Below, one piece after another: positions 2,485-56,770 of a stretch of 64,000 nt of DNA; position 1 is the stretch's first letter; every line of letters begins with the position of its first letter. The stretch is taken from NCBI RefSeq assembly GCF_022045235.1, contig NW_027266266.1, forward strand, positions 1,550,001-1,614,000. The letters are read 5' to 3'. The notes under the pieces are model-generated. The model searched no databases. It saw only the letters and a list, made by a program, of their open reading frames with translations, and was not told where the DNA came from. Source of the DNA: Haliotis cracherodii. Its lineage: Eukaryota. A program made the position numbers and the translations under genes.

Positions 2485-3775
2485 TACTTGGGTGGGGAGT
2501 CATGACAAGACCAACTTGGATGGGGAGTCATGGTGACACCTACTTGCATGGGGAGTCATGGTGACACCTACTTTGATTGGGGAGTCATGACAACACTTAC
2601 TTGAATGGGGAGTCAAGACAACCCCTTCTTGGATTGGGGAGTCATGACAAGACCAACTTGGATGGGGAATCATGGTGACACCTACTTGCGTGGGGAGTCA
2701 TGGTGACACCTACTTTGATTGGGGAGTCATGACAACACTTACTTGAATGGGGAGTCAAGACGACCCCTTCTTGGATTGGGGAGTCATGACAAGACCAACT
2801 TGGATGGGGAGTCATGGTGACACCTACTTGCATGGGGAGTCATGGTGACACCTACTTTGATTGGGGAGTCATGACAACACTTACTTGAATGGGGAGTCAA
2901 GACGACCCCTTCTTGGATTGGGGAGTCATGACAAGACCAACTTGGATGGGGAGTCATGGTGACACCTACTTGCATGGGGAGTCATGGTGACACCTACTTG
3001 CATGGGGAGTCATGATGACACCTACTTGGGTGGGGAGTCATGGTGACACCTACTTGGGTGGGGAGTCATGGTGACACCTACTTGCGTGGGGAGTCATGGT
3101 GACACCTACTTGGGTGGGGAGTCATGGTGACACCTACTTGCATGGGGAGTCATGGTGACACCTACTTGCGTGGGGAGTCATGGTGACACCTACTTGGGTG
3201 GGGAGTCATGGTGACACCTACTTGCGTGGGGAGTCATGGTGACACCTACTTGCGTGGGGAGTCATGGTGACACCTACTTGGGTGGGGAGTCATGGTGACA
3301 CCTACTTGCATGGGGAGTCATGGTGACACCTACTTGCATGGGGAGTCATGATGACACCTACTTGGGTGGGGAGTCATGGTGACACCTACTTGCGTGGGGA
3401 GTCATGGTGACACCTACTTGGGTGGGGAGTCATGGTGACACCTACTTGCATGGGGAGTCATGGTGACACCTACTTGCGTGGGGAGTCATGGTGACACCTA
3501 CTTGGGTGGGGAGTCATGGTGACACCTACTTGCGTGGGGAGTCATGGTGACACCTACTTGCGTGGGGAGTCATGGTGACACCTACTTGGGTGGGGAGTCA
3601 TGGTGACACCTACTTGCATGGGGAGTCATGGTGACACCTACTTGCATGGGGAGTCATGATGACACCTACTTGGGTGGGGAGTCATGGTGACACCTACTTG
3701 CGTGGGGAGTCATGGTGACACCTACTTGGACGTGAAGTGATGACAACACTTACTTGGATGAAGGGTCATTTTGAG
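2485..3775. repeat. 28-bp minisatellite (~45 copies) built from the SGSM exon 3 splice donor
   Basis: Unit catggtgacacctacttgcatggggagt. The minus strand carries CAA|GTAGGT in each unit and the array is in register with the true CAA|GTAAGT donor at 3753/3754. A 142-bp higher-order period is present at ~2500-2950. Confidence 0.95.
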
Positions 3776-22709: not shown

Positions 22710-22820
22710 ATGGCTGCCGGAGGAGCTCATTTGAGCTCTGGGAAAATTAATTTAAGTCTGTTACGAGATTTCTACCGTCGTGAATTCTTAGAATGCTTGG
22801 ACAAATGTTTAGGAACAAAG
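22710..22820 (+). CDS. VPS33A: VPS33A (Sec1/Munc18 subunit of HOPS/CORVET) exon 1
   Basis: MAAGGAHLSSGKINLSLLRDFYRREFLECLDKCLGTK, gtattg donor. All exons listed splice in frame with GT-AG to give 614/615 aa. Confidence 0.95.
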
Positions 22821-23514
22821 GTATTGTGTGATGTATCTGAAGTTGTGTATGTCACATCGTTTGCATAATGGCGCAGCGCATAATTTTGAACTCAAAGAAC
22901 AGGAAATAGAAAAATTCGTCTGCTGCAACACCCGCCCACTAATCGGTAGAAGTGTCAGCAATGATCAATATTTGTCACTGCGCTGCCAGAGTGAAATTGG
23001 CCGATAGTATGAAGACAAACTATACAACATTAGTAGACATTAATCAGGATTTGGACTATGCCACAAGTTATCTCCATTAGGTTTTTAGGTCGTTCTTATT
23101 ATTCAGCCCGAGCTCTACCATCCACTCAATTACAGCGCTATAGTGCCACAGCTGTCTCATTATACCGTTACCGTGCCTCACGCTCTGGTGACTCTCGCTT
23201 CACGATCCAACACCCGTTTTCGGTCTTAGGGAAACTTACACGTCTTTACGATCCAAAACCCCTTTTCGGTCATTAGGGTTAGCTTGCTTTGGGCAAGGGT
23301 TAGCCATAAATTTTTACCTTTTCAAGCGTTAATCCGGTTAATCCCATTGGTCGGTCATGTTGACATAAACAATTGCGGATGTGGTTTCAAGAAAAGATGA
23401 ATGGGAGAGCGGACCGTGACGTCACACGCATACGCAATTCATTGTTTACTGAATTACGCATGCATGTCAATGGGGATTCTAATGACCCGTTAAACGAGCA
23501 CTGATTACATGTGA

Positions 23515-23611
23515 TAGCGCCTGTGGTCCAGTGGTAGAGCATCGGCTTATTAACGCATTAATTAGCAGAGCCGGTGAGCCGGCAAAGTGCGTTCGAGCCC
23601 CCACAGCGCTA
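23515..23611 (+). pseudogene. tRNA-like sequence (pseudo-tRNA or SINE head)
   Basis: A box tggtccagtggtagagc, B box gttcgagcc, terminal complementarity tagcgc/gcgcta, expanded anticodon region. Confidence 0.4.
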
Positions 23612-25271
23612 ATTGGATCTGAAAAAGTGTGCCCGGTAAAGTGCACTACTCCCTACACCAAAATTGAAATAAATTTAATGACTGGCAATCTAGTTCAATC
23701 AAAGAGATAAAATCTCATCTCCAAAGACTGCCTTAGCCATGCTATCACTGATATCCCTTTAAAGGATCGAATCTTAGCACAGGCAGTGAGCAGTATTGGC
23801 CTAACTTTAGAATGCAGTACCACAAACTTTTCAAACACGTCACATTACCCTATGACTTAATTTGTAGTATTTTGTTGCCAGTCACGCCTCCAAAACAATG
23901 CCCTGTGACATCAGGGGTCATCAAGTGTGCATAAGCTCCTTCCAGTGATCTATGATCTCTGCACGCAATGTCATTGAAAAAGGCCAGAGATGTTGAGAGT
24001 TTCTAATATTTGTTTACTAAATATGGTCTGCAGCGTCTTATTTTACAGCAAGCGCTAGCTTATGAAAGCACTTTTATTTTCAATATGTTTTTTATTTTGC
24101 TTTTTAATATTGGTGCTGAACACATCCAAATTTCACCAGTGTCGGGGTAGGTTACCCTAAACTCTGTCCTTACAATCATTTGGGTTACGTGGCTATTATA
24201 GATACTATAGTGGTTCCTAATATTCTTCACACCAAAACATTGAGAAAGCAGGGTGAAATGGTTTAGTGTTGAATATTTTGGCTGCTAGAAACTGTCCTAG
24301 AACATACACACAAGCCACTTTCACCCAGTACATTTGTTTAGTACTGATTCAAAGGCCAACTCACCCTTGTGTCGTCACTGGTCATGCTCATGCCTCCCTC
24401 GTCCCTTACAATGATCCACATTATCCTAACACTGTTCCCTACCACCACTTTTCTGTCACAAAAAAATTACAAGTATTAAATACCATGTCATTCATGCCAA
24501 CCCGCAAGTTCAACGTCTGACGCCAGAGTCATTTCAGTTCGTGCCATATCGGCTCATTCCTCACCGCTTGGTATCTTGTAGATTACGGAATGGGATGAGT
24601 GTGCCAAATGGCATCAGGATTACTGGTAAGTGTCCGTAGACTAAAGTCACAGGACACCATGCCTACCCTCAACCTTTGTAAGTGTCCGTCACATATTCGA
24701 CCCTTTTTGTTCAATTCCGTAACAGTCGTTTAGCTGTCAGGCAAACAATCCGAAGGTCGCGAGGCGCATCTGACGGAGTCTTAGAAAACCTGGTTGCTTG
24801 TCCTTAAGGCACATGACCTACGGCAGGGATCATCCTCACATGAAGTTGTTGTACTGTATTCTAAAGTTGTTCCACAGTATTTGGCGTGTTTAATATACCT
24901 GTGCTCAGACTATCGTCTAAGTTGACCATGATGTCACTATATAACAATCTCATGACCAAACCTCTTGCAGACACCAATTATTTCAAATACTCACTCCAAT
25001 ATGTAACTAGTTACCTTTGGGAATTTGGACTTCAATTCTCCTGTGTTGTTTGGCTAGGTATCAATGTTAGTTCACTTATGCTTCTATCCCTGTAGGTTAA
25101 AATTATGTGACTGTTAACAATCTGCTGCCTCACAACAGCTTGGGTTGTATACTCCTCAGGGAGCTGAGAATTAAAATCCAGTGCACACCGATCCATTGGC
25201 CAGTTTAATAATAATAATAATGTCGTGCTTTGAGCATACATTCCGTGTGGAGTTGTGCACTTTTGTAGCAG

Positions 25272-25272
<1 letters not shown>

Positions 25273-25330
<58 letters not shown>

Positions 25331-25341
25331 CGTCGTCGTCA
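25273..25341. repeat. (GTT)n(GTC)n microsatellite
   Basis: Seen directly in the sequence. Confidence 0.95.
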
Positions 25342-25472
25342 TCCAGGGGTTATCAGATAAGTTGATTGTGGTTTACATGAGCAACAGTATAATTACTAGT
25401 GAAGGAATAGTATTAGAAGTTGCACAAACAGTTCCATACTATTTATTTCCATACTATCAACGTGTATTTCAG

Positions 25473-25538
25473 GCTCTTGTGTGGGATGATGCATTGACAG
25501 GACCATTTGGACTTATAGCTGAATACTCACTTCTAAAG
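25473..25538 (+). CDS. VPS33A: VPS33A exon 2
   Basis: ALVWDDALTGPFGLIAEYSLLK; ag/gt boundaries. Confidence 0.96.
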
Positions 25539-25769
25539 GTAAAGAGGCTAAACTAAATATGTTCACACGCTTTTATAACATTAATTTCATATTCCTCTGT
25601 ATACCTATGTCATTTAAGTAATTGATTTAGTTTGAGAAAACATTATGATGAATTGATCTTACAGTTTAAAATTTCATAATTATTACCTCCAGGATTTGTT
25701 GTATTGAAAATGTTGCAATTAATCTTATCTTTGTAATGAAATTCATTTGTAAGACCACCTTTGGGTATT

Positions 25770-25963
25770 CCAGGTTAGAATAGATCCACAGCAGTTTATG
25801 CTGGTTGTAAGCGGTGACAAAATGGATCAGGTTGTCAGACTTGGCTGATTGCATGGATTATTGCGCCAAACATCGATCACTGGATTGTCTGGTCCAGATC
25901 CATTTACAGGCCGCTGTCATCTGGCTGGAATATTACTAAGTGTGGTGTTAGGCAACAAACAAA
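25770..25963 (+). mobile_element. SINE-like family A, degenerate copy
   Basis: atcactggattgtctggtccaga...gctggaatattac...caacaaacaaac. Confidence 0.65.
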
Positions 25964-26041
25964 CTGTATGACTTACAATGCAATGATATGATTGCTATTT
26001 TCATCACAAATACTACTGACCATTTTTTTGTTTTTCTCAAG

Positions 26042-26169
26042 GAGCATGAGGTGGAGAAGATGTTCCCACTACGGTCAACAGGCCTTCCTAAGAACAATGT
26101 GCAGAATGTGTTGTTTATAACCAGACCAAAACTGCATTTAATGGAGATGATCTCACAAAATATCCTGCA
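26042..26169 (+). CDS. VPS33A: VPS33A exon 3
   Basis: EHEVEKMFPL...FITRPKLHLMEMISQNIL; phase 2 gtcagt donor. Confidence 0.94.
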
Positions 26170-26809
26170 GTCAGTATAGTTTTCTCATTTAGAGAATGTA
26201 AGAATTTCTGTTCAGTCCTGTTTCACAAAGTCCTATGTTTAATTATGGGAGCTATAGCACTATTACAGCCCTAGTATGTACATGTGTTATACATGTGAAT
26301 ATTGTGTATAAGAGTGCTCTGTACTGACTCTGCAATTTTGTCCTCGCCCACCGATCAGTGATTGCTAAGGGTCATATCTTCAAAGGTATGTTTTTAACAT
26401 CAAACCAAGCAAGAGCTGTTTTATGACTGGTATTGTTAGGTATCACTGAATTTGTAATATTACTCTTGGACTCTATGCATTACAAAATGAAAAGCTTTAA
26501 TTGAATTCTTTGGTAAATAAAGATCTGTGGATTAATAAAATGCACGGTGACCATATGCATTCTTTTGTTTGGACAGAAGCTTCGACATCATTGGAATATG
26601 TGAATGTGTATAATATTTGTAATCCATTCTCATACAGTAAATTGTCAACTATTGTATATATATGTATATATATTGTGTATATATATATAGATGTGGTGCA
26701 ATTGGCCTGTAGGCTACATATACCAATAAACTGTCTGTCTGTCTGTCTCTGTTAATTTGTCCAATTTGATTGAAACCCCACATAAATATGTAAATGATTT
26801 CTATTACAG

Positions 26810-26894
26810 AGAAGAGCAACAAGGTGGCTTTAGAAAAGAATATTACCTGGTGTTTGTCCCTCGCAAGAGCCTCCTGTGTGAGAAGAAATTAAAG
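26810..26894 (+). CDS. VPS33A: VPS33A exon 4
   Basis: EEQQGGFRKEYYLVFVPRKSLLCEKKLK. Confidence 0.95.
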
Positions 26895-27751
26895 GTATTA
26901 CCGTACAGCTACTTCTCTTCTTGTGATATTTAAACATTGAAATGAAACAATGTAGATGATGATTACCTTGTAGCAACATCATTGATGCATTTCATTCACA
27001 AAATTTGCAAACCTCACTTTTTCTCCCTTGTCATACTGTATTATCCTGAATGATCAAGATGATAATGGTATGATTTATAAACTTAGCGCTGTTGTGCTTA
27101 ATTAAAAGTATGTATTTTAAGGTTTGTATTTGTAACAACCCAAACAAATCTTAAAAGCACTAATGAGGAAGCATGGCTTAATTGGTATGGCAGGCCAGGC
27201 CCGCAAGCTGATTGGTATCACCACCAGCAGGGTATAGAATATACGTGATTCTTTCATTAGTTGGGGGGAGACCTGTGTTGCATATATAATACCAGTATGG
27301 CTTGTGGGGGCTTGTCAAGTAACCTGGATTTAACATGAATTATATTATTTTAACATTGTAGGATATTTCCCTTTCAATTTTAGGTGAGTGAGTTCCACCA
27401 CCCCTACCTTTCCCACCACCCCCCCCCCCCCCTTTAACTTTTGTCGGTCATAGATTCGCGCATGTAGAGGTTCACTTGTACCTTAATTCAGAAATCATCT
27501 TCAAAGACACATTCACATTCAATGATAACTCGTAAAGTTGTGTCACTGTCAGAGTCGGACAGATCAGCCAATATTTTAAACAAAGAAAAGTGTTGCAACA
27601 AAGTCAGTGTAATGAGTACCGTAACATGACCAATAAATGCAACTGAACAAATAGCATGTTTCGCTCATCAGTTTCTCACCGAATATTGACCAAGAACGAA
27701 GCTATGGTAGCGAATGGGCCCAGGGTACTTGACAGTGTATGTCTGTTGCAG

Positions 27752-27856
27752 GAGATCGGAGTGTACGGGTCCTTCACCAGTGTGGAGGAGTTTAACCTGG
27801 AGCTGATACCGTTCGACTACGATCTGCTCTCAATGGAGATGGACAACACGTTTAGG
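27752..27856 (+). CDS. VPS33A: VPS33A exon 5
   Basis: EIGVYGSFTSVEEFNLELIPFDYDLLSMEMDNTFR. Confidence 0.96.
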
Positions 27857-28609
27857 GTAGGCTACCTTCCTCACAAGGGATGCAATTAGCGTTGTTGATA
27901 AATACCAACCTTGTTTTTAAGATATTTTTTTATAAATGTGAAGTTCACATGATGTACAGTTTTTCAATTGGAGAAGGGCGCTGGAATGATACGTTCTATT
28001 CATGAGCCATCATTCTAGAAACAAAGTAAACACTGTCCAATTACTCCCAGACTCCTGGACGCCGTTTGACCGTCGTAAGTCTATGTTGAAGTATGGGTGT
28101 CACGATCATCTTAATGCTACGAGTGTCATAACTTTATGTTGAAGTATGGGAGTTACAGTCGTCTCAGAGCTAACATCACTTTGTGGAACGGGTCCCTGAG
28201 GAAAGATAGGGTATTATCAACATCTGATGTTCACATAGTTAAGCTGTCAGTCTATGAAGGTTTATACTCCTATGAACTTAAAAGTGGTGCACATCAATTC
28301 TTAACTGAATAGTTAATGAAAGCAAAAGTAATGTGGATCATGTTCTTATTAATCATACTGTAATTTGTTCAGCTTATCAGCAAACACGTGACGATCCCTC
28401 AAGATGCAGCCAGCTGTATACAACATTATTAATGGCTAAATTGATCATGCTTATCATAATGTGACATCTTTGGTTTAACTTCTTTTCGCCTTGATAGACT
28501 CCTGGATGTGTGATATATGACATGCGGATTGTGAAGATCAGAATAAATAGGAAGCTCCATTGCGTAGAGAACAGTTTATGGCTTGAGTCTGGACTTATCT
28601 AGAGTTGAC

Positions 28610-28880
28610 TCTACAATACAAATGGTTTCCACAGATGTATACGGCCATTGGCTGGGTCGCATGAAGTGTGACGCTACAATACAAATGGTTTCCACAGATG
28701 TATACGGCCTTTGACTTGGTCCCATGAAGAGTGACGCTACAATACAAATGATTTCCACAGATGTATACGGCCATTGGCTGGGTCCCATGAAGAGTGACGC
28801 TACAATACAAATGATTTCCACAGATGTATACGGCCATTGGCTGGGTCCCATGAACAGTGACTGTACGGTACAAATTGTTT
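28610..28880. repeat. 63-bp tandem repeat (~4 copies) abutting the exon 6 acceptor
   Basis: Each unit contains tttccacag; the array ends ~12 nt before the ttccag acceptor. Confidence 0.9.
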
Positions 28881-28892
28881 TCACTGTTCCAG

Positions 28893-29009
28893 GACTGTTA
28901 CCTGGACAATGACTTCACCTCCATGTACTACGCGGCACAGTCGCTGATGACGCTGCAGGCGCTGTACGGGACAATACCTTACATCCATGGCAAGGGGGAC
29001 TGTGCTAAG
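28893..29009 (+). CDS. VPS33A: VPS33A exon 6
   Basis: [39 protein letters not shown]. Confidence 0.96.
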
Positions 29010-29142
29010 GTAGGTAGATATCTGTTCAAGGACATGCCACTCAAAATGTCTTATATTTGTACTGAACGCTACCTTACTGTAATGATTGGCTTTAATTTTG
29101 TATCGTGTTAGCCCAGTTTAGATGAAGTTCTCAGAAACCTTC

Positions 29143-30620
29143 AATATTTGTGTTCTGGGGGAATGAACGCAGAACACAAGGGGCACTGAGCTGTGTATAT
29201 TTGTGTTCTGGGTGAATGAATGCACAACACAAGGGGCACTGAGCTGTGTATATTTGTGCTGTAGGGGAATGGACACAGAACACAAGGGGCACTGAGCTGT
29301 ATATATTTGTGTTGTAGGGGAATGGACACAGAACACAAGGGGCACTGAGCTGTATATTTGTGTTGTAGGGGAATGGACACAGAACACAAGGGACATTGAG
29401 CCGTATATTTGTGTTGTAGGGGAATGGACACAGAACACAAGGGGCACTGAGCTGTGTATATTTGTGTTGTAGGGGAATGGACACAGAACACAAGGGACAT
29501 TGAGCTGTATATTTGTGTTGTAGGGGAATGGACACAGAACACAAGGGACACTGAGCTGTGTATATTTGTGTTGTAGGGGAATTGACACACTACACAAGGG
29601 ACACTGAGCTGTGTATATTTGTGCTGTAGGGGAATGGACACAGAACACAAGGGGCACTGAGCTGTATATATTTGTGTTGTAGGGGAATGGACACAGAACA
29701 CAAGGGGCACTGAGCTGTATATTTGTGTTGTAGGGGAATGGACACAGAACACAAGGGACATTGAGCCGTATATTTGTGTTGTAGGGGAATGGACACAGAA
29801 CACAAGGGGCACTGAGCTGTGTATATTTGTGTTGTAGGGGAATGGACACAGAACACAAGGGACATTGAGCTGTATATTTGTGTTGTAGGGGAATGGACAC
29901 AGAACACAAGGGGCACTGAGCTGTGTATATTTGTGTTGTAGGGGAATTGACACACTACACAAGGGACACTGAGCTGTGTATATTTGTGCTGTAGGGGAAT
30001 GGACACAGAACACAAGGGGCACTGAGCTGTATATATTTGTGTTGTAGGGGAATGGACACAGAACACAAGGGGCACTGAGCTGTATATTTGTGTTGTAGGG
30101 GAATGGACACAGAACACAAGGGACATTGAGCCGTATATTTGTGTTGTAGGGGAATGGACACAGAACACAAGGGGCACTGAGCTGTGTATATTTGTGTTGT
30201 AGGGGAATGGACACAGAACACAAGGGACATTGAGCTGTATATTTGTGTTGTAGGGGAATGGACACAGAACACAAGGGGCATTGAGCTGTATATTTGTGTT
30301 GTAGGGGAATGGACACAGAACACAAGGGGCACTGAGCTGTGTATATTTGTGTTGTAGGGGAATGGACACAGAGCACAAGGGGCACTGAGCTGTGTATATT
30401 TGTGTTGTAGGGGAATGGACACAGAACACAAGGAGCACTGAGCTGTGTATATTTGTGTTGTAGGGGAATGGACACAGAACACAAGGGGCACTGAGCTGTG
30501 TATATTTGTGTTGTAGGGGAATGGACACAGAACACAAGGGGCACTGAGCTGTGTATATTTGTGTTGTAGGGGAATGGACACAGAACACAAGGGACACTGA
30601 GCTGTGTATTTGTGTTTCAG
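29143..30620. repeat. 51/53-bp minisatellite (~28 copies) ending in the exon 7 acceptor
   Basis: Unit atatttgtgttgtaggggaatggacacagaacacaaggggcactgagctg(tg)t with a 365-bp higher-order period. Confidence 0.95.
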
Positions 30621-30795
30621 AATGTGGTGGACATGATGCGTCGGATGAAGGGCGAGCTGAGTGGGCGTGAACCGCAGATCACCCCCCAGATAGACAACCT
30701 CCTCATCTTGGACCGCACCGTCGACCTCCTCACTCCCCTCTTGTCACAGCTCACCTATGAAGGCCTCATTGATGAGGTGTTCGGCCTTAGTAACA
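30621..30795 (+). CDS. VPS33A: VPS33A exon 7
   Basis: NVVDMMRRM...IDNLLILDRTVDLLTPLLSQLTYEGLIDEVFG, the Sec1-family DR-D-TP-QLTYEG motif. Confidence 0.97.
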
Positions 30796-31320
30796 GTAGG
30801 TTGCTTTCCAAGCTCCTGTCTCTTTGAAAGCCTTAAACCTTGCATTTACGATATTCTTTCAAATATATGAAAGAAATGGTTTTTTTAAAAAGCGTTACGA
30901 ATACTTCAATATCAGTAAAATGTACACAAACCAGAGTGCTGTGATAAGTTTGATAACCAGCAAATAGACTTACTTTCAATTGAGACAAGTTGAATTTGGA
31001 ATGGGAGACACAACTGTATCAATTCATATGTTGTAAATCTGTCCAAAATGCCCTTGTAAGCTTCAGCTGGTATGGTGCCTTATAAGAAACATGTTATTGT
31101 GATTTGAAACCTCTTATCGTGATTAACAAATGATAATTGGTTAATTGGTTGTCTCTCTTAATCATGGATAGACTTCAAATGAAAGATGAATTTCTGAAAA
31201 TAAGGCAATGCTATCTGTTCTTGAAAATTATTCATTTTGAACTGATTTACTTCTATTGCCCTTGAGCTGTGGATTGAGCCATGCTATACAGTAGTTGCAG
31301 TGGCTGTTGTCTGATTGTAG

Positions 31321-31517
31321 CAAGTGTCAAACTGCCACCAGAGAAGTTCTCCCAGAAGAAGGAGGATGGGTCAGGGCCCTCAGATGTCCCATCTGAACCA
31401 AAGAAAATCATTCTCAACTCTGGAGATGAACTGTACGCAGATCTGAGAGACAAGAACTTCAATGCTGTCGGTGCTATTGTCAGCCGCAAAGCTAAAGTCA
31501 TCACTGCAGAATTTGAT
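31321..31517 (+). CDS. VPS33A: VPS33A exon 8
   Basis: SVKLPPEKF...[20 protein letters not shown]...AEFD. Confidence 0.96.
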
Positions 31518-32213
31518 GTAAGCACAGCTTTAGGCTAGAATACTTGCTGGTATGTTATTATATGTGGCAGTGTCCTGGGTCTAGTGCTATACATGCAGCC
31601 CAGTCTGTCAACCATGGTATGTATGGATGCAATGATGCACGTTGAAGCAGGTTTCTTATCTTACCCAAAGACATACATTGATAGGATGGGAAGCCTGCTG
31701 TGATGCACGTTGAAGCAGGTTTCTTATCTTACCCAAAGACATACATCGATAGGATGGGAAGCCTGCTGTAATAGTCATCACTGATGTAAGACATGCTTAT
31801 TTGCAACAGCAAGGGGTCAATGATCTGCTGTGGCCGCTAAGCATCTTGGGTAATTCACTATCGTAAGACAAAGTAGCGCTGCGGTTGGATTTTTACAGAT
31901 TGCACTGCTTAGGTAGCATTTAATGCACTAATTTAAGAATTGTAATTACTTAGAATGTGTGAGAAAGCTATCATGTTTTAGTGATTTAACGGTTATCCTT
32001 GGCTAAATTCCTTGTTGATCTATATTTTATATCTACCTTTTCGGGGTACATTCATTCATTTCAGAAACTCATTGCTTCTTGCCAGATAAGCAAATTACCT
32101 CAAATGTTCCAACTAATTATTCAGTAGGTTATATGAAATTTGTACACTGATTGTGAGTGGGCTACATGGAGACTGATTGCCCTCACAGACTTCTTTGTTT
32201 TTTTGTGTGACAG

Positions 32214-32304
32214 GAGCGACACAGTGCAAAGACAGTGGGAGAGATGAAACAGTTTGTGTCTAAACTGCCCCACCTCCAGGCCGCCCGGCAGTCCCTGGCC
32301 ACAC
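32214..32304 (+). CDS. VPS33A: VPS33A exon 9
   Basis: [30 protein letters not shown]; gtgagt donor. Confidence 0.96.
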
Positions 32305-35262
32305 GTGAGTAGTGTCCCCTGCCCCTACAAGCCACTAGTGAGTAGTCTCCCCTGCCCCTACTGTCACTAGTGAGTAGTGACCCCCCAGCACCTACTGGTC
32401 ACTAGTGAGTAGTGACCCCCCAGCCCCTACTGGTCACTAGTGAGTAGTGACCCCCCCAGCCCCTACTGGTCACTAGTGAGTAGCCACTCCCCAGCCCTTA
32501 CTGGTCACTAGTGAGTAGCCACTCCCCAACCCTTACTGGTCACTAGTGAGTAGTGACCCCCCAGCCCCTACTGATCACTAGTGAGTAGCCACTCCCCTAC
32601 CCTCACTGGTCACTAGTGAGTAGCCACTCCCCGACCCTTACAGGTCACTAGTGAGTAGTGACCCCCCTGCCCCTACTGTCACTAGTGAGTAGTCACTCCC
32701 CGACCCTTACTGGTCACTAGTGAGTAGTGACCCCCCCTGCCCCTACTGTCACTAGTGAGTAGTCACTCCCCCGCCCCTACTGGTCACTAGTGAGTAGTGA
32801 CCCCCCAGCCCCTACTGGTCACTAGTGAGTAGCCACTCCCCGACCGTTACTGGTCACTAGTGAGTAGTGACCCCCCTGCCCCTACTGGTCACTAGTGAGT
32901 AGTCACTCCCCCTCCCCTACTGGCCACTAATGAGTAGTGACCCCCCTGCCCTTATTGGTCACTAGTGAGTAGTGACCCCCCTGCCCCTACTGGTCACTAG
33001 TGAGTAGTTACTCCCCTGCCCCTACTGGTCACAAGTGAGTAGTGACTCCCCCGCCCCTACTGGTCACTCATGTGAGTAATCACTCTCCCGCCCCTACTGG
33101 CCACTAATGTGAGTAGTCACACACAACCACCCACCCCCCCACCCACCCCCTACTGGTCACTCATGTGAGTAGTGACCCCCCTGCCCCTACTGGTCACTAG
33201 TGAGTAGTTACTCCCCTGCCCCTACTGGTCACTAGTGAGTAGTGACCCCCCCCGCCCCTACTGGTCACTCGTGTGAGTAGTCACTCCCCCGCCCCTACTG
33301 GCCACTCATGTGAGTAGTCACTCCCCCGCCCCTACTGGCCACTCATGTGAGTAGTGACCCCCCGCCCCTACTGGCCACTCATGTGAGTAGTGACCCCCCG
33401 CCCCTACTGGTCACTCATGTGAGTAGTGACCCCCCTGCCCCTACTGGTCACTCGTGTGAGTAGTCACTCCCCCGCCCCTACTGGCCACTGAGAGTAGTGA
33501 CCACCCCGCCCCTACTGGCCACTAGTGAGTTGTCACTCCCCCGCCCCTACTGGCCACTCATGTGAGTAGTCACTCCCCCGCCCCTACTGGTCACTCATGT
33601 GAGTAGTCACTCCCCCGCTCCTACTGGCCACTCATGTGAGTAGTCACTCCCCCGCCCCTACTACTGGTCACCTCATGTGAGTAGTCACTCCCCTGCCCCT
33701 ACTGATCACTAGTGAGTAGCCACTCCCCGACCCTCACTGGTCACTAGTGAGTAGTGACCCCCCAGCCCCTACTGGTCACTAGTGAGTAGCCACTCCCCGA
33801 CCCTTACTGGTCACTAGTGAGTAGTGACCCCCCTGCCCCTACTGGTCACTCGTGAGTAGTCACTCCCCCGCCCCTACTGGTCACTAATGAGTAGTGACCC
33901 CCCTGCCCTTATTGGTCACTAGTGAGTAGTGACCCCCCTGCCCCTACTGGTCACTAGTGAGTAGTTACTCCCCTGCCCCTACTGGTCACAAGTGAGTAGT
34001 GACCCCCCCGCCCCTACTGGTCACTAGTGAGTAGTCACTCCCCCGCCCCTACTACTGGTCACTCGTGTGAGTAATCACTCCCCCGCCCCTACTACTGGCC
34101 ACTAGTGAGTTGTCACTCCCCCGCCCCTACTGGTCACTCATGTGAGTAATCACTCCCCCGCCCCTACTGGCCACTCATGTGAGTAGTCACTCCCCCGCCC
34201 CTACTGGTCACTCATGTGAGTAGCCACTCCCCCGCCCCTACTGGTCACTCGTGTGAGTAGTCACTCCCCCTCCCCTACTGGTCACTCATGTGAGTAGTGA
34301 CCCCCCTGCCCCTACTGGTCACTAGTGAGTAGTTACTCCCCTGCCCCTACTGGTCACTAGTGAGTAGTGACCCCCCCGCCCCTACTGGTCACTCGTGTGA
34401 GTAGTCACTCCCCCGCCCCTACTGGCCACTCATGTGAGTAGTCACTCCCCCGCCCCTACTGGCCACTCATGCGAGTAGTGACCCCCCACCCCTACTGGCC
34501 ACTCATGTGAGTAGTGACCCCCCTGCCCCTACTGGTCACTAGTGAGTAGTTACTCCCCTGCCCCTACTGGTCACTAGTGAGTAGTGACCCCCCTGCCCCT
34601 ACTGGTCACTCGTATGAGTAGTCACTCCCCCGCCCCTACTGGCCACTCGTGTGAGTAGTCACTCCCCCGCCCCTACTGGCCACTAGTGAGTAGTCACTCC
34701 CCTGCCCCTACTGGTCACTCATGTGAGTAGCCACTCCCCCGCCCCTACTGGTCACTCGTGTGAGTAGTCACTCCCCCGCCCCTACTGGTCACTATTGAGT
34801 AGTCACTCCCCTGCCCCTACTGGTCACTCATGTGAGTAGCCACTCCCCCGCCCCTACTGGTCACTCGTGTGAGTAGTCACTCCCCCGCCCCTACTGGTCA
34901 CTCGTGTGAGTAGTCACTTCCCCGCCCCTACTGGTCACTCGTGTGAGTAGTCACTCCCCCGCCCCTACTGGTCACTCATGTGATTAGTCACTCCCCCGCC
35001 CCTACTGGCCACTCATGTGAGTAGTCACTCCCCTGCCCCTACTGGTCACTAGTGAGTAGCCACTCCCCTGCCCCTACTGGTCACTCATGTGAGTAGCCAC
35101 TCCCCCGCCCCTACTGGTCACTCGTGAGTAGTCATTCTCCAGGCCTACTGGTCACTCATGTGAGTAGTCACTCCCCGCCCCTACTGGTCACTCATGTGAG
35201 TAGTCACTCCCCCGCCCCTACTGGTCACTCGTGAGTAGTCATTCTCAAGGGCTACTGGCCAC
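32295..35262. repeat. 35-37-bp minisatellite (~80 copies) built from the exon 9 donor
   Basis: Unit gtgagtagtcactcccccgcccctactggtcacta. The first unit overlaps the exon end ctggccacac|gtgagtag. Confidence 0.95.
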
Positions 35263-35577
35263 TGTAACATTTGGTACAAATATTCCAATGCATGCATGAC
35301 TTTCTGTTACCATTCATTACAAGTGTGTTGACTGCATACTCTCTTCTATGTCTGGCGACAGTATAAGTGAATCTCTGCTACATGAAGCAATGCATCTGAG
35401 AATGAAAGTCAAGTCATTACAGGTATGGTTGAGTAATCAATCATTCAATCCCAGTGCATACATTATTAGTTGTAGCAGTATCACAAGGGTATATATATTG
35501 TTTGAAGCAACACGCATTAAGTTTTATACCACAAGCCGGAGCAATTATTCTTGCTGACATGTTAAAATCTGCCATTG

Positions 35578-35712
35578 CAGTGATAGAAGCTAACAATTTC
35601 AGTCCACTAGCCCTGATAATGATAACATATAGCTAAACCCTTAAAAAGGGCAAATATCTACTAGTCCTTATGACACCTTAACTGTTGGGCAGTTTGCCAA
35701 TTATTAACGCTG
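35578..35712. mobile_element. MITE, second copy of the 15475-15630 family
   Basis: Shared internal sequence gtccactagc...ataatgataacatatagc...atatctactagtcctta. Confidence 0.65.
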
Positions 35713-36146
35713 CATTGTAAAAGAATTAAATAAATTTAAAGATTAATAGAAAACTACTGTTAGATTCAGCCGAGATTAACTTGTGCTGTGTCACGTGACT
35801 TTCATTGACTCATAAACAATGTGGAACCTTTGGCTTCGTAGCAGGGTATAAGGGATATAGTCTCCTGCTCAGAAATACATGTGCACCCTGTTTTCTTCAT
35901 GCCAGCATATAATTGATTTATTCTCCTGCTCTCCCTCAGGCAGGATACACAGATACTTGAACCAATCAGATCCCACCATTCCGACATGGAGATAAGATAA
36001 ATGGACATATAGACATGTATTACATAAGGGAGATAACAATCAAGCCTTAGTAGACTGGTGTTGTCAAGCAATGGCAACACAGGTGACCTCAGGGAGTAGT
36101 GACAGTCCATGCTGTTCTGTTGAATGTCATGTGCTTGTTTCTCCAG

Positions 36147-36221
36147 ATACTTCCATCGCTGAGTTGATCAAGGAAGCGACGGACCAGGACGAGTTCATGG
36201 ACTCCCTCCGCTGTCAGCAAG
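36147..36221 (+). CDS. VPS33A: VPS33A exon 10
   Basis: (H)TSIAELIKEATDQDEFMDSLRCQQ. Confidence 0.95.
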
Positions 36222-36611
36222 GTACGACACCAGCACGAGATTCAGTAGCTCACCTGCTCAGCACAGTCGGGTTGTTACAAAAAGGCAATAAATAAACCTG
36301 GGTAATTTGTGTGGCTGTATGGAAAACTGAATTTAATGGCTTTATTTAATGGTACAGTGTTCTCCTGATGTTTAAGTTTAAATGTTTTATTTCCATATTG
36401 TATTTGTCTTTGATACATAGTAGGTGCCACTGTTTGTCATTGTGCCTAAATGTACTGGATCATTGCTTGATCAGTCTTTTCAGTCTTTTACAACTGTGAC
36501 AACAGGGATATAGCTATAGTATTGCTGACTATCCGTTTGCTGACACTAGTGTGACATTGGAGGCAGTATGTTCAGGAAGTAGTTGTGTTATGTGAATGAT
36601 ATATTCAACAG

Positions 36612-36691
36612 AATTTATTAATGGCATGGAAACCGACAAAGTCCACCCCTACATTGAAGACGCCATAGCCAAGCAGGAAGTCCTGACTAAG
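36612..36691 (+). CDS. VPS33A: VPS33A exon 11
   Basis: (E)FINGMETDKVHPYIEDAIAKQEVLTK. Confidence 0.95.
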
Positions 36692-37050
36692 GTAAACGGT
36701 TTACAACAATTTCCTAAATTTTATTTGCTCAGACAATAAAATTGTGTCATTATTTAGGATAGTATATTATCTTAGAATAAACCCCTTAAGTTCTATTTAA
36801 GAACGCCTAGCAGATTCATACTGATCAGTTATGTGTGTGTTGTATTGCAATTACATCTCTCAATATCAATAGTTATTGCAATAGTTGTTTCCAATAGTTA
36901 TTGATATCGCAATAGTCTTTTGGGCTCAATAGTCACCCCTAGTGTTGAGTGAGTGCAGTTTAGTGTCAGTATCACAGTGGTAGTGTAGCCTCCCCCTTAT
37001 AACATGGTCATGCTGATCCCAGATTAGTAGTGTGTGTTGAGTGAGTGCAG

Positions 37051-37718
37051 TAGACCATTCCTTTAACCTGTGGAATATTCCTTAAACTTGTAGACTATTC
37101 CTTAAACATGTAGACTATTCCTTTATCCTGTGGAATATTCCTTAAACTTGTAGACTATTCCTTTAACCTGTAGACTATTACTTAAATTTGTAGACTATTC
37201 CTTAAACATGTAGACTATTCCTTTAACCTGTAGACTATTACTTAAACTTGTAGACTATTCCTTTAACCTGTAGAATATTCCTTAAACATGTAGACTATTC
37301 CTTTAACCTGTAGAATATTCCTTAAACATGTAGACTATTCCTTTAACCTGTAGAATATTCCTTAAACATGTAGACTATTCCTTTAACCTGTAGACTATTC
37401 CTTAAACATGTAGACTATTCCTTTAACCTGTAGAATATTCCTTAAACTTGTAGACTATTCCTTGAACATGTAGACTATTCCTTAAACTTGTAGACTATTC
37501 CTTGAACATGTAGACTATTCCTTAAACTTGTAGACTATTCCTTAAACATGTAGACTATTCCTTAAACTTGTAAACTATTCCTTAAACATGTAGACTATTC
37601 ATTAAAACTTGTAGACTATTCCTTAAACATGTAGACTATTCATTAAAACTTGTAGACTATTCCTTAAACATGTAGACTATTCCTTAAACTTGTAAAATAT
37701 TCCTTTAGCCTGTAAACT
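37051..37718. repeat. 20-bp minisatellite (~33 copies)
   Basis: Unit tagactattccttaaacatg. Confidence 0.95.
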
Positions 37719-37781
37719 GAACTCACTTACTGTAGACTTCCAGCAGGACTGATGGTGATGTGTCGTGTGGAATGTTTGCAG

Positions 37782-37868
37782 GTACTGAGGCTGATCTGTA
37801 TCCAGTCTTTCTGCAACGATGGACTGAAGCCAAAAGTTCTTGACTTCTACAAGAGGGAAATAGTCCAG
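37782..37868 (+). CDS. VPS33A: VPS33A exon 12
   Basis: [29 protein letters not shown]. Confidence 0.96.
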
Positions 37869-38416
37869 GTAGGAAGCAACACTTGACTTCTACAAGAGGG
37901 AAATAGTCCAGGTAGGAACCAGTACTTGACTTCTACAAGAAGGAAATAGTCCAGGTAGGAACCAGTACTTGACTTCTACAAGACGGAAATAGTCCAGGTA
38001 GGATCCAGTACTTCTACAAGAGGGAAATAGTCCAGGTAGGAACCAATACTTGACTTCTACAAGAGGGAAATAGTCCAGGTAGGAACCAGTACTTGACTTC
38101 TACAAGAGGGAAATAGTCCCGGTAGGAACCAGTACTTGACTTCTACAAGAGGGAAATAGTCCAGGTAGGATCCAGTACTTGACTTCTACAAGACGGAAAT
38201 AGTCCAGGTAGGAACCAATACTTGACTTCTACAAGACGGAAATAGTCCAGGTAGGAACCAATACTTGACTTCTACAAGAGGGAAATAGTCCAGGTAGGAA
38301 CCAGTACTTGACTTCTACAAGAAGGAAATAGTCCAGGTAGGAACCAGTGCTTGACTTCTACAAGAGGGAAATAGTCCAGGTAGGAAGCAACCCTTGACTT
38401 CTACAAGAGGGAAATA
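37839..38416 (+). repeat. 43-bp tandem repeat (~13.5 copies) of the last 30 nt of exon 12 plus its donor
   Basis: Unit cttgacttctacaagagggaaatagtccag|gtaggaaccagta. Confidence 0.97.
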
Positions 38417-38886
38417 ATACTGATATCAATGCAGTGTTTGATATTCAGGACAAATTTCATGGAGTGTCAAAGTCATGGAGACATGAAACCCTGCATGGAT
38501 GACAACTTCTCTACTGTTTGTACATTTGGGGCTACCTTGTTCTCATCCATCTTTACGTTTCATGTCTTCAAATGTCAGGTGGTCATGTTTAACTGTCATG
38601 TGCAGTATTTAACGTTGTAAAATCTACACCCATTGAACTCAGTACCTCCTTAATTTGAATCACTGTCAATACATGAATGACTGAAGAAAGTGAGTTATAT
38701 AATGAATCGGTGGGACAAGTTTCCTTTGGAGGCCATCCTATTGAAATGTGAAACAGACAATGCCCTATCATTACTACCAGAATGGGTTCTGTGTTGGTGA
38801 CATTATGTGTCTTAATTACTTTTCTACTATGCTGTTATTATATCGAGCTTCAGTTGATTCTATCTGTTTTTTTGTTTCTTCACCAG

Positions 38887-39018
38887 ACGTATGGGTTCGA
38901 GCACATGTTGACTTTGATGAACCTGGAGAAAACAGGGCTGCTTCGTCCCCATGGCAACCGTACATACACAGTAATCAGGAAGTCACTGAAGCTGATAGTA
39001 GAGGATGTCAGTGAACAG
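38887..39018 (+). CDS. VPS33A: VPS33A exon 13
   Basis: [19 protein letters not shown]...[18 protein letters not shown]. Confidence 0.96.
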
Positions 39019-39436
39019 GTGAGTTATGCATTAGAATGGTCAACAGGTGAGTTATGCATTAGAATGGTCAACAGGTGAGTTATGCATTAGAATGGTCAAC
39101 AGGTGAGTTATGCATTAGAATGGTCAACAGGTGAGTTATGCATTAGAATGGTAAACAGGTGAGTTATGCATTAGAATGGTCAACAGGTGAGTTATGAATT
39201 AGAATGGTCAACAGGTGAGTTATGCATTAGAATGGTCAACAGGTGAGTTATGAATTAGCTTGGTCAACAGGTGAGTTATGAATTAGCATGGTCAACAGGT
39301 GAGTTATGCATTAGAATGGTCAACAGGTGAGTTATGCATTAGAATGGTCAACAAGTGAGTTATGCATTAGAATGGTCAACAGGTGAGTTATGAATTAGAA
39401 TGGTCAACAGGTGAGTTATGCATTAGAATGGTCAAC
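39014..39436 (+). repeat. 28-bp tandem repeat (15 copies) of the exon 13 donor
   Basis: Unit aacag|gtgagttatgcattagaatggtc. Confidence 0.97.
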
Positions 39437-40511
39437 TGGAGAGCAAAGCAAATATGTTTGGACTTGATGCTCCACAGTTAGAAGTCTTGATAATGAAAAC
39501 AGATGTATTTGACACAAAATTATAATCCGTAACCAAGGTAACTGTAGCACTGGTTCCAATAGCATGTCTTGCTCCAGTCATGAAGTTTGTTTGATGATGT
39601 TTAGTACAATGTTTATACTGTAGATACCCACAGATAAGTATTGTGCCTTCAGGTTTCATTTCTAGGTTTCTCAACTCAATGTTCAGCTTCGTAGTGATTA
39701 TTTGGTTGAAGAAATATATAAAAAGGAAAACAATAATAAGTTCTTGACATTAATCGAGAATAAATCCAATATGTTATCTGTTAGATATAATTTGAAATTG
39801 AATGTGTCATTAGTAGATGTTTAACCCTTGAAATGATGATGATAAGATTTGTGTGAGAATTGTTCACTATTTGAAGTGCTGACCTCAAAAGTTTGAACAT
39901 TTTTCAAAAGGGGATGGATAAACTTGCAACATTGTTATCATGCTTTACTTGCGTGGTCGGTTTCAGTTTGCTAGCAGTAGGGATAACTTGAAATGCCTGA
40001 CATAATTTACTTCCCTTTATTATCCTTCAGATATTTTGTTTATGAAAACTGAAATTTCATTAAATTATTTTCCTGAACCTGAGTATATATCCTGATGGGA
40101 TATCCTGAGTATATATCCTGATGGGATATGTATCAGCGTATGTTTGAGCGGAATGGTACATGAGGGTAGGAGAGGGGAAAGTATTAAGGACTACCTTGAA
40201 AGGGATGGGTACTTTTAGAATATTGGCGATTCTATTTCAGTAAGAGCACTGGTTGAATTCCAGTTACAGTTTACTGTAGAGACATGTATAGAAATCCATA
40301 TAAATAAATTTGTTTTATTGTTGGGAGCCATGCCGCGCCTAACATGAATATCTTAGGAGACTGATAAACTGATATTGTCGCCAGTGATGTTTACTTTAAG
40401 GTAGCCAAGTGGTGAGCAGTAGAAAAATTTAGGTCACCATAGATTTAAATTGCATCTGGCCACCGAAATGGTCGCTTCTCAGAGGGCTGACCCATGTCGA
40501 ATGTATTGCAG

Positions 40512-40680
40512 CTCCCTAACGACATCTCGTACGTGTTCAGCGGCTACGCCCCCCTGAGTGTGCGCCTGGCCCAGTATCTGGCGCGGCCTGGCTGGAGAAG
40601 CATCACAGAAGTACTCAACCTTCTGCCGGGGCCCAAAGTAGAGGAAATACAACAGATACCAGTAGCACTCAGGAAAAGAA
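40512..40680 (+). CDS. VPS33A: VPS33A exon 14
   Basis: [41 protein letters not shown]... Confidence 0.97.
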
Positions 40681-41029
40681 GTAATTTGTTTGAAATATGT
40701 TGTCTGCCAAAAGATAATATGAGGAACTGTTCTTCGAAATTCAGGGGTCCTGGGATCCTATGGTATTTGAATGTGGAGACCCCTGAAATATTTCATTTTT
40801 CACATAAGGGTTACGACAAGGACCTACAGAAGCCATTTATGCCCATTTGCCTTTTTGATTATTTCTTGAAATATCAAGACACTGAGTTGAAATTTAGAGA
40901 TGCTATGTTAAAATTGAAACTTTCTGTGAGGAAACATTTGATAATGTGTGTTTAGATTGGTATGAATATCTGTGCTGTGAGAGTGACCATGCCGTACTGC
41001 CTGTATTATTCAATATCCTGATTTACCTT

Positions 41030-41408
41030 CCAGAGTTCTACATGGACTTGTGCTTTAACTAAGATATTGCTGCCTTCAGTAAACCTCTGTCCTTCCTCAC
41101 AACGTTGTATACATAATTTATCTTCCATGGTCCTACATTGTCTCGTGCTGTAACTAAGACATTTCTGCCTTCAGTAAACCACTGTCCTTCCTCACAATGT
41201 TGTATACATAATTTATCTTCCATGGTCCTAGACTGACATCATGCTATAGCTAAGATATTGCTGCCTACAGTAAACTTCTGTCCTTCCTCACAACGTTGTA
41301 TACATGATTTATCTTCCATGGTCCTACATTGTCTCGTGCTGTAACTAAGACATTGCTGCCTACAGTAAACCTCTGTCCTTCCTCACAACGTTGTATACAT
41401 AATTTATC
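41030..41408. repeat. ~95-bp tandem repeat (~4 copies) ending 20 nt before the exon 15 acceptor
   Basis: Repeated taactaaga...cagtaaacctctgtccttcctcacaacgttgtatacataatttatc. Confidence 0.9.
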
Positions 41409-41428
41409 AATCACTTTTCCTGTTACAG

Positions 41429-41551
41429 GAAGTTCCATCTCCTCTCAGCATTCCAGTTCTGGGGATCAGAAAGTGACACTCGTCTTCTTCCTCGGGGGCG
41501 TGACGTTTGCAGAGATTGCCGCACTCCGCTTCCTTGCACAGCAGGATGATG
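41429..41551 (+). CDS. VPS33A: VPS33A exon 15
   Basis: [40 protein letters not shown](G); phase 1 donor gtaggt. Confidence 0.97.
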
Positions 41552-41694
41552 GTAGGTGTTACCATAGAAACAACTGTGTCAATAGCGCATACATGACATA
41601 TTAAGTGCTCCTGTCAACTGAGGAAGGGAAATTGAAATTATGCTTCTTAAAACCATATGCCAGGACATTTTCTTGACCAGACTATTTCGTTCTT

Positions 41695-41930
41695 TTTAAC
41701 GCTCCACTCAACAATATTCCAGTTATAAGACGGCAGTCTGAAAATAATCAAGATTGGAACAGACAATCCAGTGATTGACATCATGAGCATCGATCCACAC
41801 AATGTGGATACGATGACATGCATCAACCAAGTCAGCAACAGCCCGATCCTGTAAGTCCCCTCTTACGACAAGCATAGTATTCCCTATTGGCAAGCATAGG
41901 TTGCTGAAGACCAACTCTAACCCAGATCTT
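41695..41930 (-). mobile_element. SINE-like family A copy
   Basis: Matches the family consensus in reverse orientation. Confidence 0.75.
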
Positions 41931-42049
41931 CTTTACTGTTCCCGGAATGTTTGACCGAGAATGAGGTCTGAGGTCAATACTAATAATACAGTGGCTGACC
42001 TCACTAGTATTGTTCATGTCAGGTTCTTCTACCATATTGACCTCAAAAG

Positions 42050-42220
42050 TCTTCGGGTTAGAATAGGTCTTCAGAAACCCATGCTTGCCGTAAAAGGCGA
42101 CTATGCTTGTCGTAAGAGGCAACTAACGGGATCGGGTGGTCAGGCTCGCTGACTTGGTTAATGCATGTTATGAAATCTCAATTGCGTGGATCGATGCTCA
42201 TGATGTCAATCACTGGATCA
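42050..42220 (+). mobile_element. SINE-like family A, partial copy
   Basis: cgggttagaataggtcttcag...cgtaagaggcaactaacgggatcgggtggtc. Confidence 0.75.
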
Positions 42221-43393
42221 TGTCAGTATGTTGATAACTTATTGATAACAATCCTGGTTATGATATGGATACTTGACATGTTCATCAGCCATCTGACAAC
42301 AGACACAGACCGGGTTAGTTTGATGCTGTATAGGGGCCAAGCGACCTCAAACCGACCAATAGGTAATCTTTTGGGGAAACCAAAGAGGATCTGAGCACTT
42401 ACTATGTTGAACAACATAAACTGATTAATGTCTTTTGAATATTTTGTTTCTTTTGAACTCCTACTTTTTCTAGTTTAAAGTCTGTGTACAGTAGTTTTAT
42501 ATGTGTTATTGTATTCAACCTTACATACAGGATGTTACTGACTGGTTTGACTCGGGCTGAAACGATACACAGAATCTTATTAACCTTCATACAATATTAC
42601 GAAAATATTCTAATTTTGATATCAGAGGGGAAGCGGAAGCTGATTTTATTTCAAAGACATTAAGACAACACTAATTCTGCACAATGGACTCAATATAAAG
42701 GAGGCCATCTTATGTGAAGCGGTATTTGTGGTTGAATTAAGTGTGTCGTGGATCGTCTCTGTGGTAGTGCATTGATGCATCAGTGAGTCGTTTCAGCCCC
42801 GATTGGAAGGCGCTTCATCATGTAGCTGTCTCAGTACTATCACATGTTTGAATCCAATACTATATCTCCCTGCCTGAAGATCTATGAAACACTATATAGA
42901 AGGTCCATGAGCAAACTTTGACCCCCGATCCATAGGAAGGATGCATGGGTTCTTGAGTCAATCAAATGTCAGCTGTCTGAAAAGAATTTGATTAATGTCT
43001 TTTTATCTTGATCTTAACAAAAGAAAACCTACACAGAAAACATATTCCTTCAATAGTACACACTTTTGGGTGTAGTTGCCATGGTGCGGAAAAACAACAG
43101 TATGTGTGGCCTTTATTATTTCCATTTAGATCTGTTTGTTCAGGATCATTTTTTCAAGATACCGTAAACAGGTTTGCTCCGCTGAAAGTCTCCCTGTTGC
43201 CACCTCCTTAGAGGTTTTGTCAGATATTCACGCAGAGGTATCATCATCATCACTATCATGTCCAAGTTACAGATCTGATTTTATTGAGATTGATTATGTT
43301 GATGAAGACCATTGTTGAATCATGTTGTTACTTTTTGTGTATCTCATTAACCAGATGTTATTTGTTCTATAAGTTTGTCTTTGCATGCTGTAG

Positions 43394-43500
43394 GTACTGA
43401 TTATATTGTTGCTACAACGGCCATCGTTAATGCGGAAAATTTCATCAAGCCTTTAGTGGAGCAGTTTGAGTCCCATCTGAGTGACTCACCTCCTTACTAG
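43394..43500 (+). CDS. VPS33A: VPS33A alternative terminal exon 16a
   Basis: ctgtag acceptor, phase 1: (G)TDYIVATTAIVNAENFIKPLVEQFESHLSDSPPY*. Confidence 0.75.
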
Positions 43501-47646: not shown

Positions 47647-47750
47647 GCGGCACAGACTACTTGATTGCCACAACCAAGATCATAACGGGGAAGCACTTGA
47701 TTGAGTCTTTACAGGAGAAGATAGAGACTGTCAAACTGAACCCATTCTGA
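47647..47750 (+). CDS. VPS33A: VPS33A alternative terminal exon 16b
   Basis: Long pyrimidine tract plus ttcag, phase 1: (G)GTDYLIATTKIITGKHLIESLQEKIETVKLNPF*. Closest to the vertebrate C-terminus (GGTEYVIATTK...PF). Confidence 0.9.
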
Positions 47751-56324: not shown

Positions 56325-56478
56325 CTGCAACATATTTGTAAAAGTTGTTTTTACATTTTCTAGAAATTAAAAGATTGAAGTATGATCTAAGGATCTCCGT
56401 TCGTTCGGTCGACATGTCCGCATGGCGAGGCAACGCTTCAACCAGCAGGCTACCCCAACGCCCCTTCTAACGGCCTGT

Positions 56479-56741: not shown

Positions 56742-56770
56742 AATGCAACGGCCTTAAAAGGGCAACATAC

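What the first reader, a model, noticed from the sequence alone, without database searches (positions are those of the whole stretch)
37839..38416. Exon 12 3' end plus donor amplified 13 times
Seen: the unit contains 30 coding nt ([10 protein letters not shown]) and CAG|GTAGGA, so 12 downstream donors have near-identical exonic context to the real one. Read-through gives GTA GGA AGC AAC ACT TGA, so any distal donor introduces a premature stop. This shows directly that the array was born from the exon junction. Inference: a natural test of proximal 5' splice-site choice, and a possible copy-number-dependent dial on productive VPS33A mRNA.
Basis: seen in the sequence. Interest (0 to 1): 0.7.

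Follow-up and report, generated by a model that had tools for sequence, protein, structure and literature searches.

The report
Abalone VPS33A splice-donor "mirage" minisatellite
The last 30 coding bases of an exon in an abalone VPS33A gene, with its splice signal, are copied 13 times into the next intron, but the one assembled RNA that can tell the copies apart is spliced at the first, so this is likely a harmless repeat of a kind already known from lancelets and human genes.

Summary
The structure is real. A single-locus 43-bp array (37835-38416, 13.7 copies) starts inside coding exon 12 of an intact abalone VPS33A gene and holds 13 GTAGGA donors. Any downstream donor would stop the protein at 444 of 615 aa. 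It was copied from the exon: the peptide is conserved in limpet and chiton, and the unit was found nowhere else in the genome. It is not new. It matches amphioxus "mirage" minisatellites and the human F7 intron-7 and CBS intron-13 VNTRs. In F7 the proposed test has been done: only the first donor is used, whatever the copy number. Here the one informative RNA contig splices at donor 1, and 8 of 8 annotated Haliotis VPS33A isoforms are full length. No downstream use was shown, but contigs cannot exclude a few percent. Such arrays are common in this genome: exon 13 and the neighbouring SGSM1 carry them, as do 6 of 229 sampled exon hits. The scan had already found them at other loci of this genome. 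The copy-number dial has no support here, and allele-length variation was not testable.

The parts
22710..43500 (+). VPS33A gene, 16 coding exons of isoform X1 (alternative last exon of X2 at 47647-47750)
   Evidence: Spliced model equals P0001; X2 last exon
37782..37868 (+). Coding exon 12 (87 nt, phase 0-0, aa 411-439)
   Evidence: RNA contigs cover 37780-37868 and run back into exon 11 (tables 7-8)
37839..37868 (+). Exonic 30-mer ([10 protein letters not shown]) that is part of the repeat unit
37869..37874 (+). Authentic donor, CAG|GTAGGA
   Evidence: Joint skipping 1018 nt, GT..AG, 85 letters on the short side in run X9
37835..38416 (+). 43-bp minisatellite, 13.7 copies, 12 downstream pseudo-donors (37912-38380), one 38-nt unit, partial last copy
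   Evidence: only match in G000
37884..37886 (+). In-frame TGA met by any read-through past donor 1
38887..39018 (+). Coding exon 13
39014..39443 (+). Second donor-spanning array: 28 bp, 15.4 copies, 15 GTGAGT sites, about 5 exonic nt per unit
2485..3760 (-). Donor-spanning array in the neighbouring SGSM1 gene (28 bp, 45.4 copies; 38 AA|GTRGT sites counted)

Best explanation
This is a single-locus minisatellite copied from the exon 12/intron 12 junction of VPS33A, and it is likely tolerated because splicing likely takes the first donor and leaves the 12 extra donors silent inside the intron. Shown: the anatomy, the exon origin, the stop that any downstream donor would bring, and splicing at donor 1 in one related-abalone RNA contig. 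Inferred: a short duplication or template switch from intron +13 back to exon -30 seeded a 43-nt period, which slippage or unequal exchange expanded. The inner units were homogenised while the first and last keep a different 13-nt part. Inferred by analogy with F7 and the mirages: first-come or exon-definition donor choice keeps the mRNA intact. Rare downstream use would give a stop at codon 445, a likely NMD substrate, and would be noise rather than regulation. It is one of many such arrays in a genome whose introns are rich in minisatellites.
For: Unit = exon 30-mer + donor, one locus in the genome; peptide conserved in limpet and chiton. Run X9: one contig joins exon 12 to exon 13 at donor 1 with 85 letters on the short side. 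8 of 8 annotated isoforms from four Haliotis species read EIVQ|TYGF and are 614-615 aa. All 12 downstream GT sites are intact, so there is no visible purge of decoys. Edge units differ from inner ones, as reported for mirages (PMC3087553). The same architecture occurs at exon 13, twice in SGSM1 (one donor, one acceptor) and at 6 donors and 3 acceptors among 229 sampled exon hits. F7 minigenes with 1-12 monomers used only the first site.
Against: The RNA evidence is assembled contigs from 5 runs of related organisms, kind guessed as RNA; contigs drop rare forms. Five downstream donors share the full 30-nt exonic context, so the short-sided joints in X1 (placed at donor 1) and X2 (placed at donor 13, 26+4 letters) cannot be assigned. 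A truncated isoform might fall outside the 90% cluster that was listed. Human CBS and 6-16 do use two pseudo-sites (introduction of PMC1557585). Donor-spanning arrays exceed a uniform-placement expectation (6 vs 1.7, P about 0.008), which pure chance does not explain.
Confidence: 0.85

Rival explanations
1. Leaky but unselected: donor 2 or 3 is used at a few percent, as in human CBS and 6-16, and the products are degraded; allele length may shift VPS33A mRNA slightly without being a control device.
For: The 9-mer of 11 of 12 downstream donors equals the real one. CBS and 6-16 use two pseudo-sites. A paper title in a reference list links the CBS VNTR to lower CBS activity (title only). RNA contigs do lie on the repeat units.
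Against: No unambiguous downstream joint. The X9 contig over 37846-37918 runs unspliced past donor 2. RNA contigs also cover unique intron sequence, so pre-mRNA or DNA can explain cover of the repeat. F7, LMNB2 and PDGF use only the first site.
Confidence: 0.11
2. Selected regulatory dial: array length tunes productive VPS33A mRNA through splicing coupled to NMD.
For: Every downstream donor gives a stop at least 449 nt upstream of the last junction. The duplication appears in runs of three coded organisms (A, C, D), so it has persisted.
Against: No downstream use shown, and no allele-length data. The TGA in unit 1 is not kept in runs X4 and X9 (A>T at 37886). The same arrays occur in kinesin, UCH and SGSM1 genes. 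In F7, copy number did not change donor choice.
Confidence: 0.03
3. Assembly artefact: the array is a mis-assembled or inflated repeat.
For: Tandem arrays are hard to assemble; the exact copy number was not checked against long reads.
Against: Units carry distinct variants. Independent runs hold contigs crossing unit junctions and one running from the last unit into unique intron (X1, X20, X9).
Confidence: 0.01

Closest known systems
Amphioxus 'mirage' minisatellites (Adh3, troponin C, globins BflGb6 and BflGb9, PGBD5); PMC3087553 and PMC3902484, passages read
   Same: Tandem copies of a gene's own exon-intron boundary, 5' or 3'. Unit length is within the 10-72 bp given for Adh3. Splice signals are kept in most units, boundary units are less homogenised, and normal mRNA is made.
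   Different: Mollusc rather than cephalochordate. Length instability between haplotypes is reported there and untested here.
Human F7 intron-7 37-bp VNTR (Borensztajn et al. 2006, PMC1557585; parts 1 and 3 of 6 read)
   Same: First unit spans the donor; identical pseudo-donors follow; the first is used.
   Different: F7 has 4 exonic nt and 5-9 units; here 30 exonic nt and 13.7 units. F7 was tested with minigenes; this locus was not.
Human CBS intron-13 31-bp VNTR c.1444_1467+7(16_21) (PMC2630376 passages; splicing as summarised in PMC1557585)
   Same: Mostly exonic unit (24 exonic + 7 intronic nt by its HGVS name) with a donor in each copy; similar copy number.
   Different: CBS is reported to use two pseudo-sites and is a proven VNTR; neither is shown here.

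Membership tests
Mirage / junction-spanning minisatellite | Head-to-tail array of units of 10 bp or more | tested here: met
   43 bp x 13.7, 93% matches
Mirage / junction-spanning minisatellite | Unit spans the gene's own authentic exon-intron boundary | tested here: met
   First unit covers 37839-37881 across the donor of exon 12, verified by protein and RNA
Mirage / junction-spanning minisatellite | Splice signal kept in most units | tested here: met
   12 of 12 downstream GT, 11 of 12 CAG|GTAGGA
Mirage / junction-spanning minisatellite | Locus-specific, not a dispersed satellite family | tested here: met
   One match in G000, itself (the tool warns that no match does not prove rarity)
Mirage / junction-spanning minisatellite | Normal mRNA is made from the authentic site | tested here: met
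   X9 contig joins at donor 1; full-length annotated proteins
Mirage / junction-spanning minisatellite | Pseudo-donors silent or nearly so | tested here: inconclusive
   Contigs only; short-sided joints cannot be assigned among identical copies
VNTR (F7/CBS type) | Copy number varies between alleles | not testable with these tools
   No spanning reads or second allele; contigs collapse the array
AS-NMD regulatory element (poison splice choice) | Alternative choice introduces a stop more than 50 nt upstream of the last junction | tested here: met
   449-917 nt; the 50-nt rule is recalled mammalian knowledge, untested in molluscs
AS-NMD regulatory element (poison splice choice) | The alternative form is actually made and regulated | tested here: inconclusive
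   No unambiguous downstream joint; no raw RNA reads were offered

The most novel reading that the evidence does not exclude
Abalone carries junction-spanning arrays at roughly 1-6% of donors genome-wide (6 of 229 sampled, about 3.5 times a uniform-placement expectation), likely thousands of loci; I put that part at about 0.7. The bold reading adds that at long-exonic arrays such as VPS33A exon 12 the spliceosome leaks to downstream donors in proportion to array length, so allele length is a heritable NMD dial on a HOPS/CORVET core gene.
Probability: 0.06. Interest if true: 0.55.

Novelty: new member of a known kind. Interest (0 to 1): 0.16.

Why it matters
As a single locus it matters little: the class is described and its central question was tested in F7. 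The useful by-product is the prevalence. If 2-3% of abalone donors carry such arrays, abalone RNA long reads would give a genome-wide test, in an invertebrate, of whether the first of several identical donors always wins. The arrays can also mislead gene annotation and short-read junction calls, as the ambiguous X2 joint shows.

Tried and rejected
The run search listed no holder on record as RNA and no raw reads; this is not evidence on expression. The first read-laying (X1, X3, X4, X19) was swamped by a high-copy element at about 41700-42300. The X2 joint listed as 38375>38883 was rejected as evidence of donor-13 use: its short side is 26+4 letters, identical in donors 1, 2, 6, 8, 11 and 13, and another X2 contig ends at 37868. 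Contig depth was not used as a count. For the record, repeat-unit over unique-intron depth was 70/2.9 (X1) and 46/2.5 (X2) against 525/17-33 (X20), which needs no downstream splicing but proves nothing. RNA folding of exon 12 plus three units is no better than shuffles (z 0.14), so structural masking was rejected. A full spliced SGSM1 model failed, so the donor matrix rests on 15 VPS33A sites and was used only to place boundaries. A subtelomere effect was not seen: repeat cover does not track distance to contig end (rho 0.05, 95 regions). No extra copy of the amplified 15 aa was found in 15 of 29 SGSM1 cluster members listed. The 30 myosin loci were not scored, being mostly one paralog cluster. 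Literature: 6 searches listed no title on abalone junction arrays or a VPS33A VNTR; the library lacks most subscription papers, and no supplements were read.

Full report
Setting. The window is G000:C3:1550001-1614000 of a 1.18-Gb animal genome. The exon after the array matches human VPS33A (4BX8/4BX9, E 7e-10) and is 100% identical to P0001, named by NCBI as Haliotis cracherodii VPS33A-like X1. A 16-exon AG/GT model from 22710 to 43500 translates to P0001 letter for letter. Exon 12 is 37782-37868 and exon 13 is 38887-39018. About 38% of this gene's intron sequence is tandem repeat (7109 of 18943 nt).

Observation. TRF gives a 43-bp array at 37835-38416, 13.7 copies. Each full unit is 13 intronic nt starting GTAGGA plus the exon's last 30 nt ([10 protein letters not shown]). 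There are 13 GTAGGA sites: the real donor at 37869 and 12 downstream. Of these 12, 11 are CAG|GT and one is CCG|GT. Five have the 30-mer unchanged, five differ at -14, one at -2, and one lacks 5 nt. The array ends in a 24-nt partial exonic copy without a donor. Any downstream donor keeps VGSNT* and gives 444 aa, with the stop 449-917 nt before the last junction.

Origin. The coding peptide aligns with limpet and chiton VPS33A, so the exon is old. The repeat was found only at this place in the genome. The copy direction is therefore exon to array. The first and last units share a 13-nt part that differs from the inner units, the boundary exclusion described for mirages. Because the array ends in exonic rather than intronic letters, either its 3' edge was trimmed or a 24-nt templated insertion seeded the period; this is inference. 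Contigs on the repeat occur in runs of coded organisms A (X1, X2, X19, X20), C (X4) and D (X9). The intron flank of organism A differs from the window by about 19 letters and two indels in 490. So the duplication is shared beyond this one assembly. Whether any coded organism is the window's species was not determined.

Which donor is used. Seven runs were laid, all as contigs: X1, X3, X4, X19 and X1, X2, X9, X20; five are guessed RNA. In X9 one 2045-nt contig joins exon 12 to exon 13, skipping 1018 nt with GT..AG ends and 85 letters on the short side: donor 1. In X1 and X2 the assembly breaks at the repeated 30-mer, so their joints (26+4 letters) cannot be assigned; X2's was placed at donor 13 and X1's at donor 1. 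A low-depth X9 contig runs unspliced from 37846 to 37918, past donor 2. No unambiguous downstream joint was listed, but contigs drop rare forms. All 8 members of the VPS33A cluster (four Haliotis species, two isoforms each) are 614-615 aa and read EIVQ|TYGF. Runs X4 and X9 show A>T at 37886, which would remove the first TGA. Donor 2 would still shift the frame and stop after 41 codons of exon 13.

How common. In VPS33A the exon-13 donor is also amplified (15 GTGAGT sites). The 35-bp array after exon 9 carries 70 GTGAGTAG motifs matching that donor, and the 53-bp array before exon 7 resembles its acceptor. In SGSM1 next door a donor is amplified 45-fold and an acceptor with 45 exonic nt about 14-fold. 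For a background chosen without regard to repeats I used Pfam exon hits: 123 of 125 kinesin hits (one from a stop-rich contig and one stop-rich hit dropped), 46 of 136 kinase hits (short, internal-looking ones picked), and the top 30 of 58 DEAD and 30 of 58 UCH hits. By eye, 6 of 229 have a donor-spanning array (C12:51665840, C23:58135673, C8:6493332, C7:18326521, C7:2938965, L256) and 3 of 229 an acceptor-spanning one (C78:60638626, C7:2937600, L244). Two doubtful donors were not counted, and hit ends are not always exon ends. The automatic call found 4 of 158 donors and 2 of 133 acceptors. Uniform placement (0.21 array starts per kb, mean period 35.5) predicts 1.7 donors in 229 (P about 0.008). 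Arrays that merely start within 50 nt of a site are similarly enriched (7 vs 1.65 for donors, 7 vs 1.39 for acceptors). Array edges thus crowd splice sites generally, and the null is crude because it includes exonic and intergenic sequence.

Known kin. PMC1557585 (parts 1 and 3 of 6 read) describes the same design in human F7 and lists CBS, 6-16, LMNB2 and PDGF. [quoted passage not shown] PMC3087553 and PMC3902484 (passages) describe amphioxus mirages that do not disturb normal splicing. PMC2630376 (passages) gives the CBS unit and allele range. PMC10078293 (passages) added nothing specific. Earlier notes of this scan report five or more such arrays elsewhere in this genome with the same verdict; these are unchecked AI notes and were not used as support.

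Verdict. A real, clear example of a junction-spanning minisatellite: new member of a known kind. The best explanation is tolerated neutral expansion with first-donor use (0.85). Low-level unselected leakage is possible (0.11), a selected dial unlikely (0.03). Interest 0.16.

Noticed in passing
G000:C3:1536434-1537690 (L002, SGSM1, minus strand): Acceptor plus the first 45 nt of an exon (aa 274-288) amplified about 14 times upstream of the true exon. One copy (C3:1537064-1537020) ends in GT and could be an in-frame 45-nt cassette, but none of 15 listed isoforms has an extra copy.
   Followed up: partly
window 2485-3760 (minus): SGSM1 exon-3 donor amplified about 45 times in a 28-bp array.
   Followed up: partly
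window 39014-39443, 32315-35241, 29144-30616: Further VPS33A arrays that span or copy splice signals: exon 13 donor, exon 9 donor motif, exon 7 acceptor-like motif.
   Followed up: partly
window 43394-43500 and 47647-47750: VPS33A has two homologous alternative last exons, both annotated in four Haliotis species; the X2 form resembles the limpet and chiton C-terminus.
   Followed up: partly
window 37886: Runs X4 and X9 read T instead of A, which would remove the in-frame TGA of unit 1 in those organisms.
   Followed up: partly
G000:C74 (L023, L074): Kinase and kinesin hits with many in-frame TAA/TAG and no TGA; looks like a contaminant contig using a ciliate-type code.
   Followed up: no
G000:C12:46070838-46202094: About 20 near-identical stop-bearing DEAD-domain hits in tandem, 4-10 kb apart: a likely megasatellite of a broken helicase fragment.
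   Followed up: no
window 55530-57331 (minus), 59137-59874, 110-967: Ligand-gated ion channel exons, Tc1-like transposase fragments and a weak RVT_2 fragment.
   Followed up: no
window 41700-42300: Very high-copy element in intron 15 that dominates contig depth in all runs.
   Followed up: no
L238 (G000:C23:75335035-75338406): A 63-bp array starts inside the last codons of a UCH gene and spans what looks like its stop codon.
   Followed up: no
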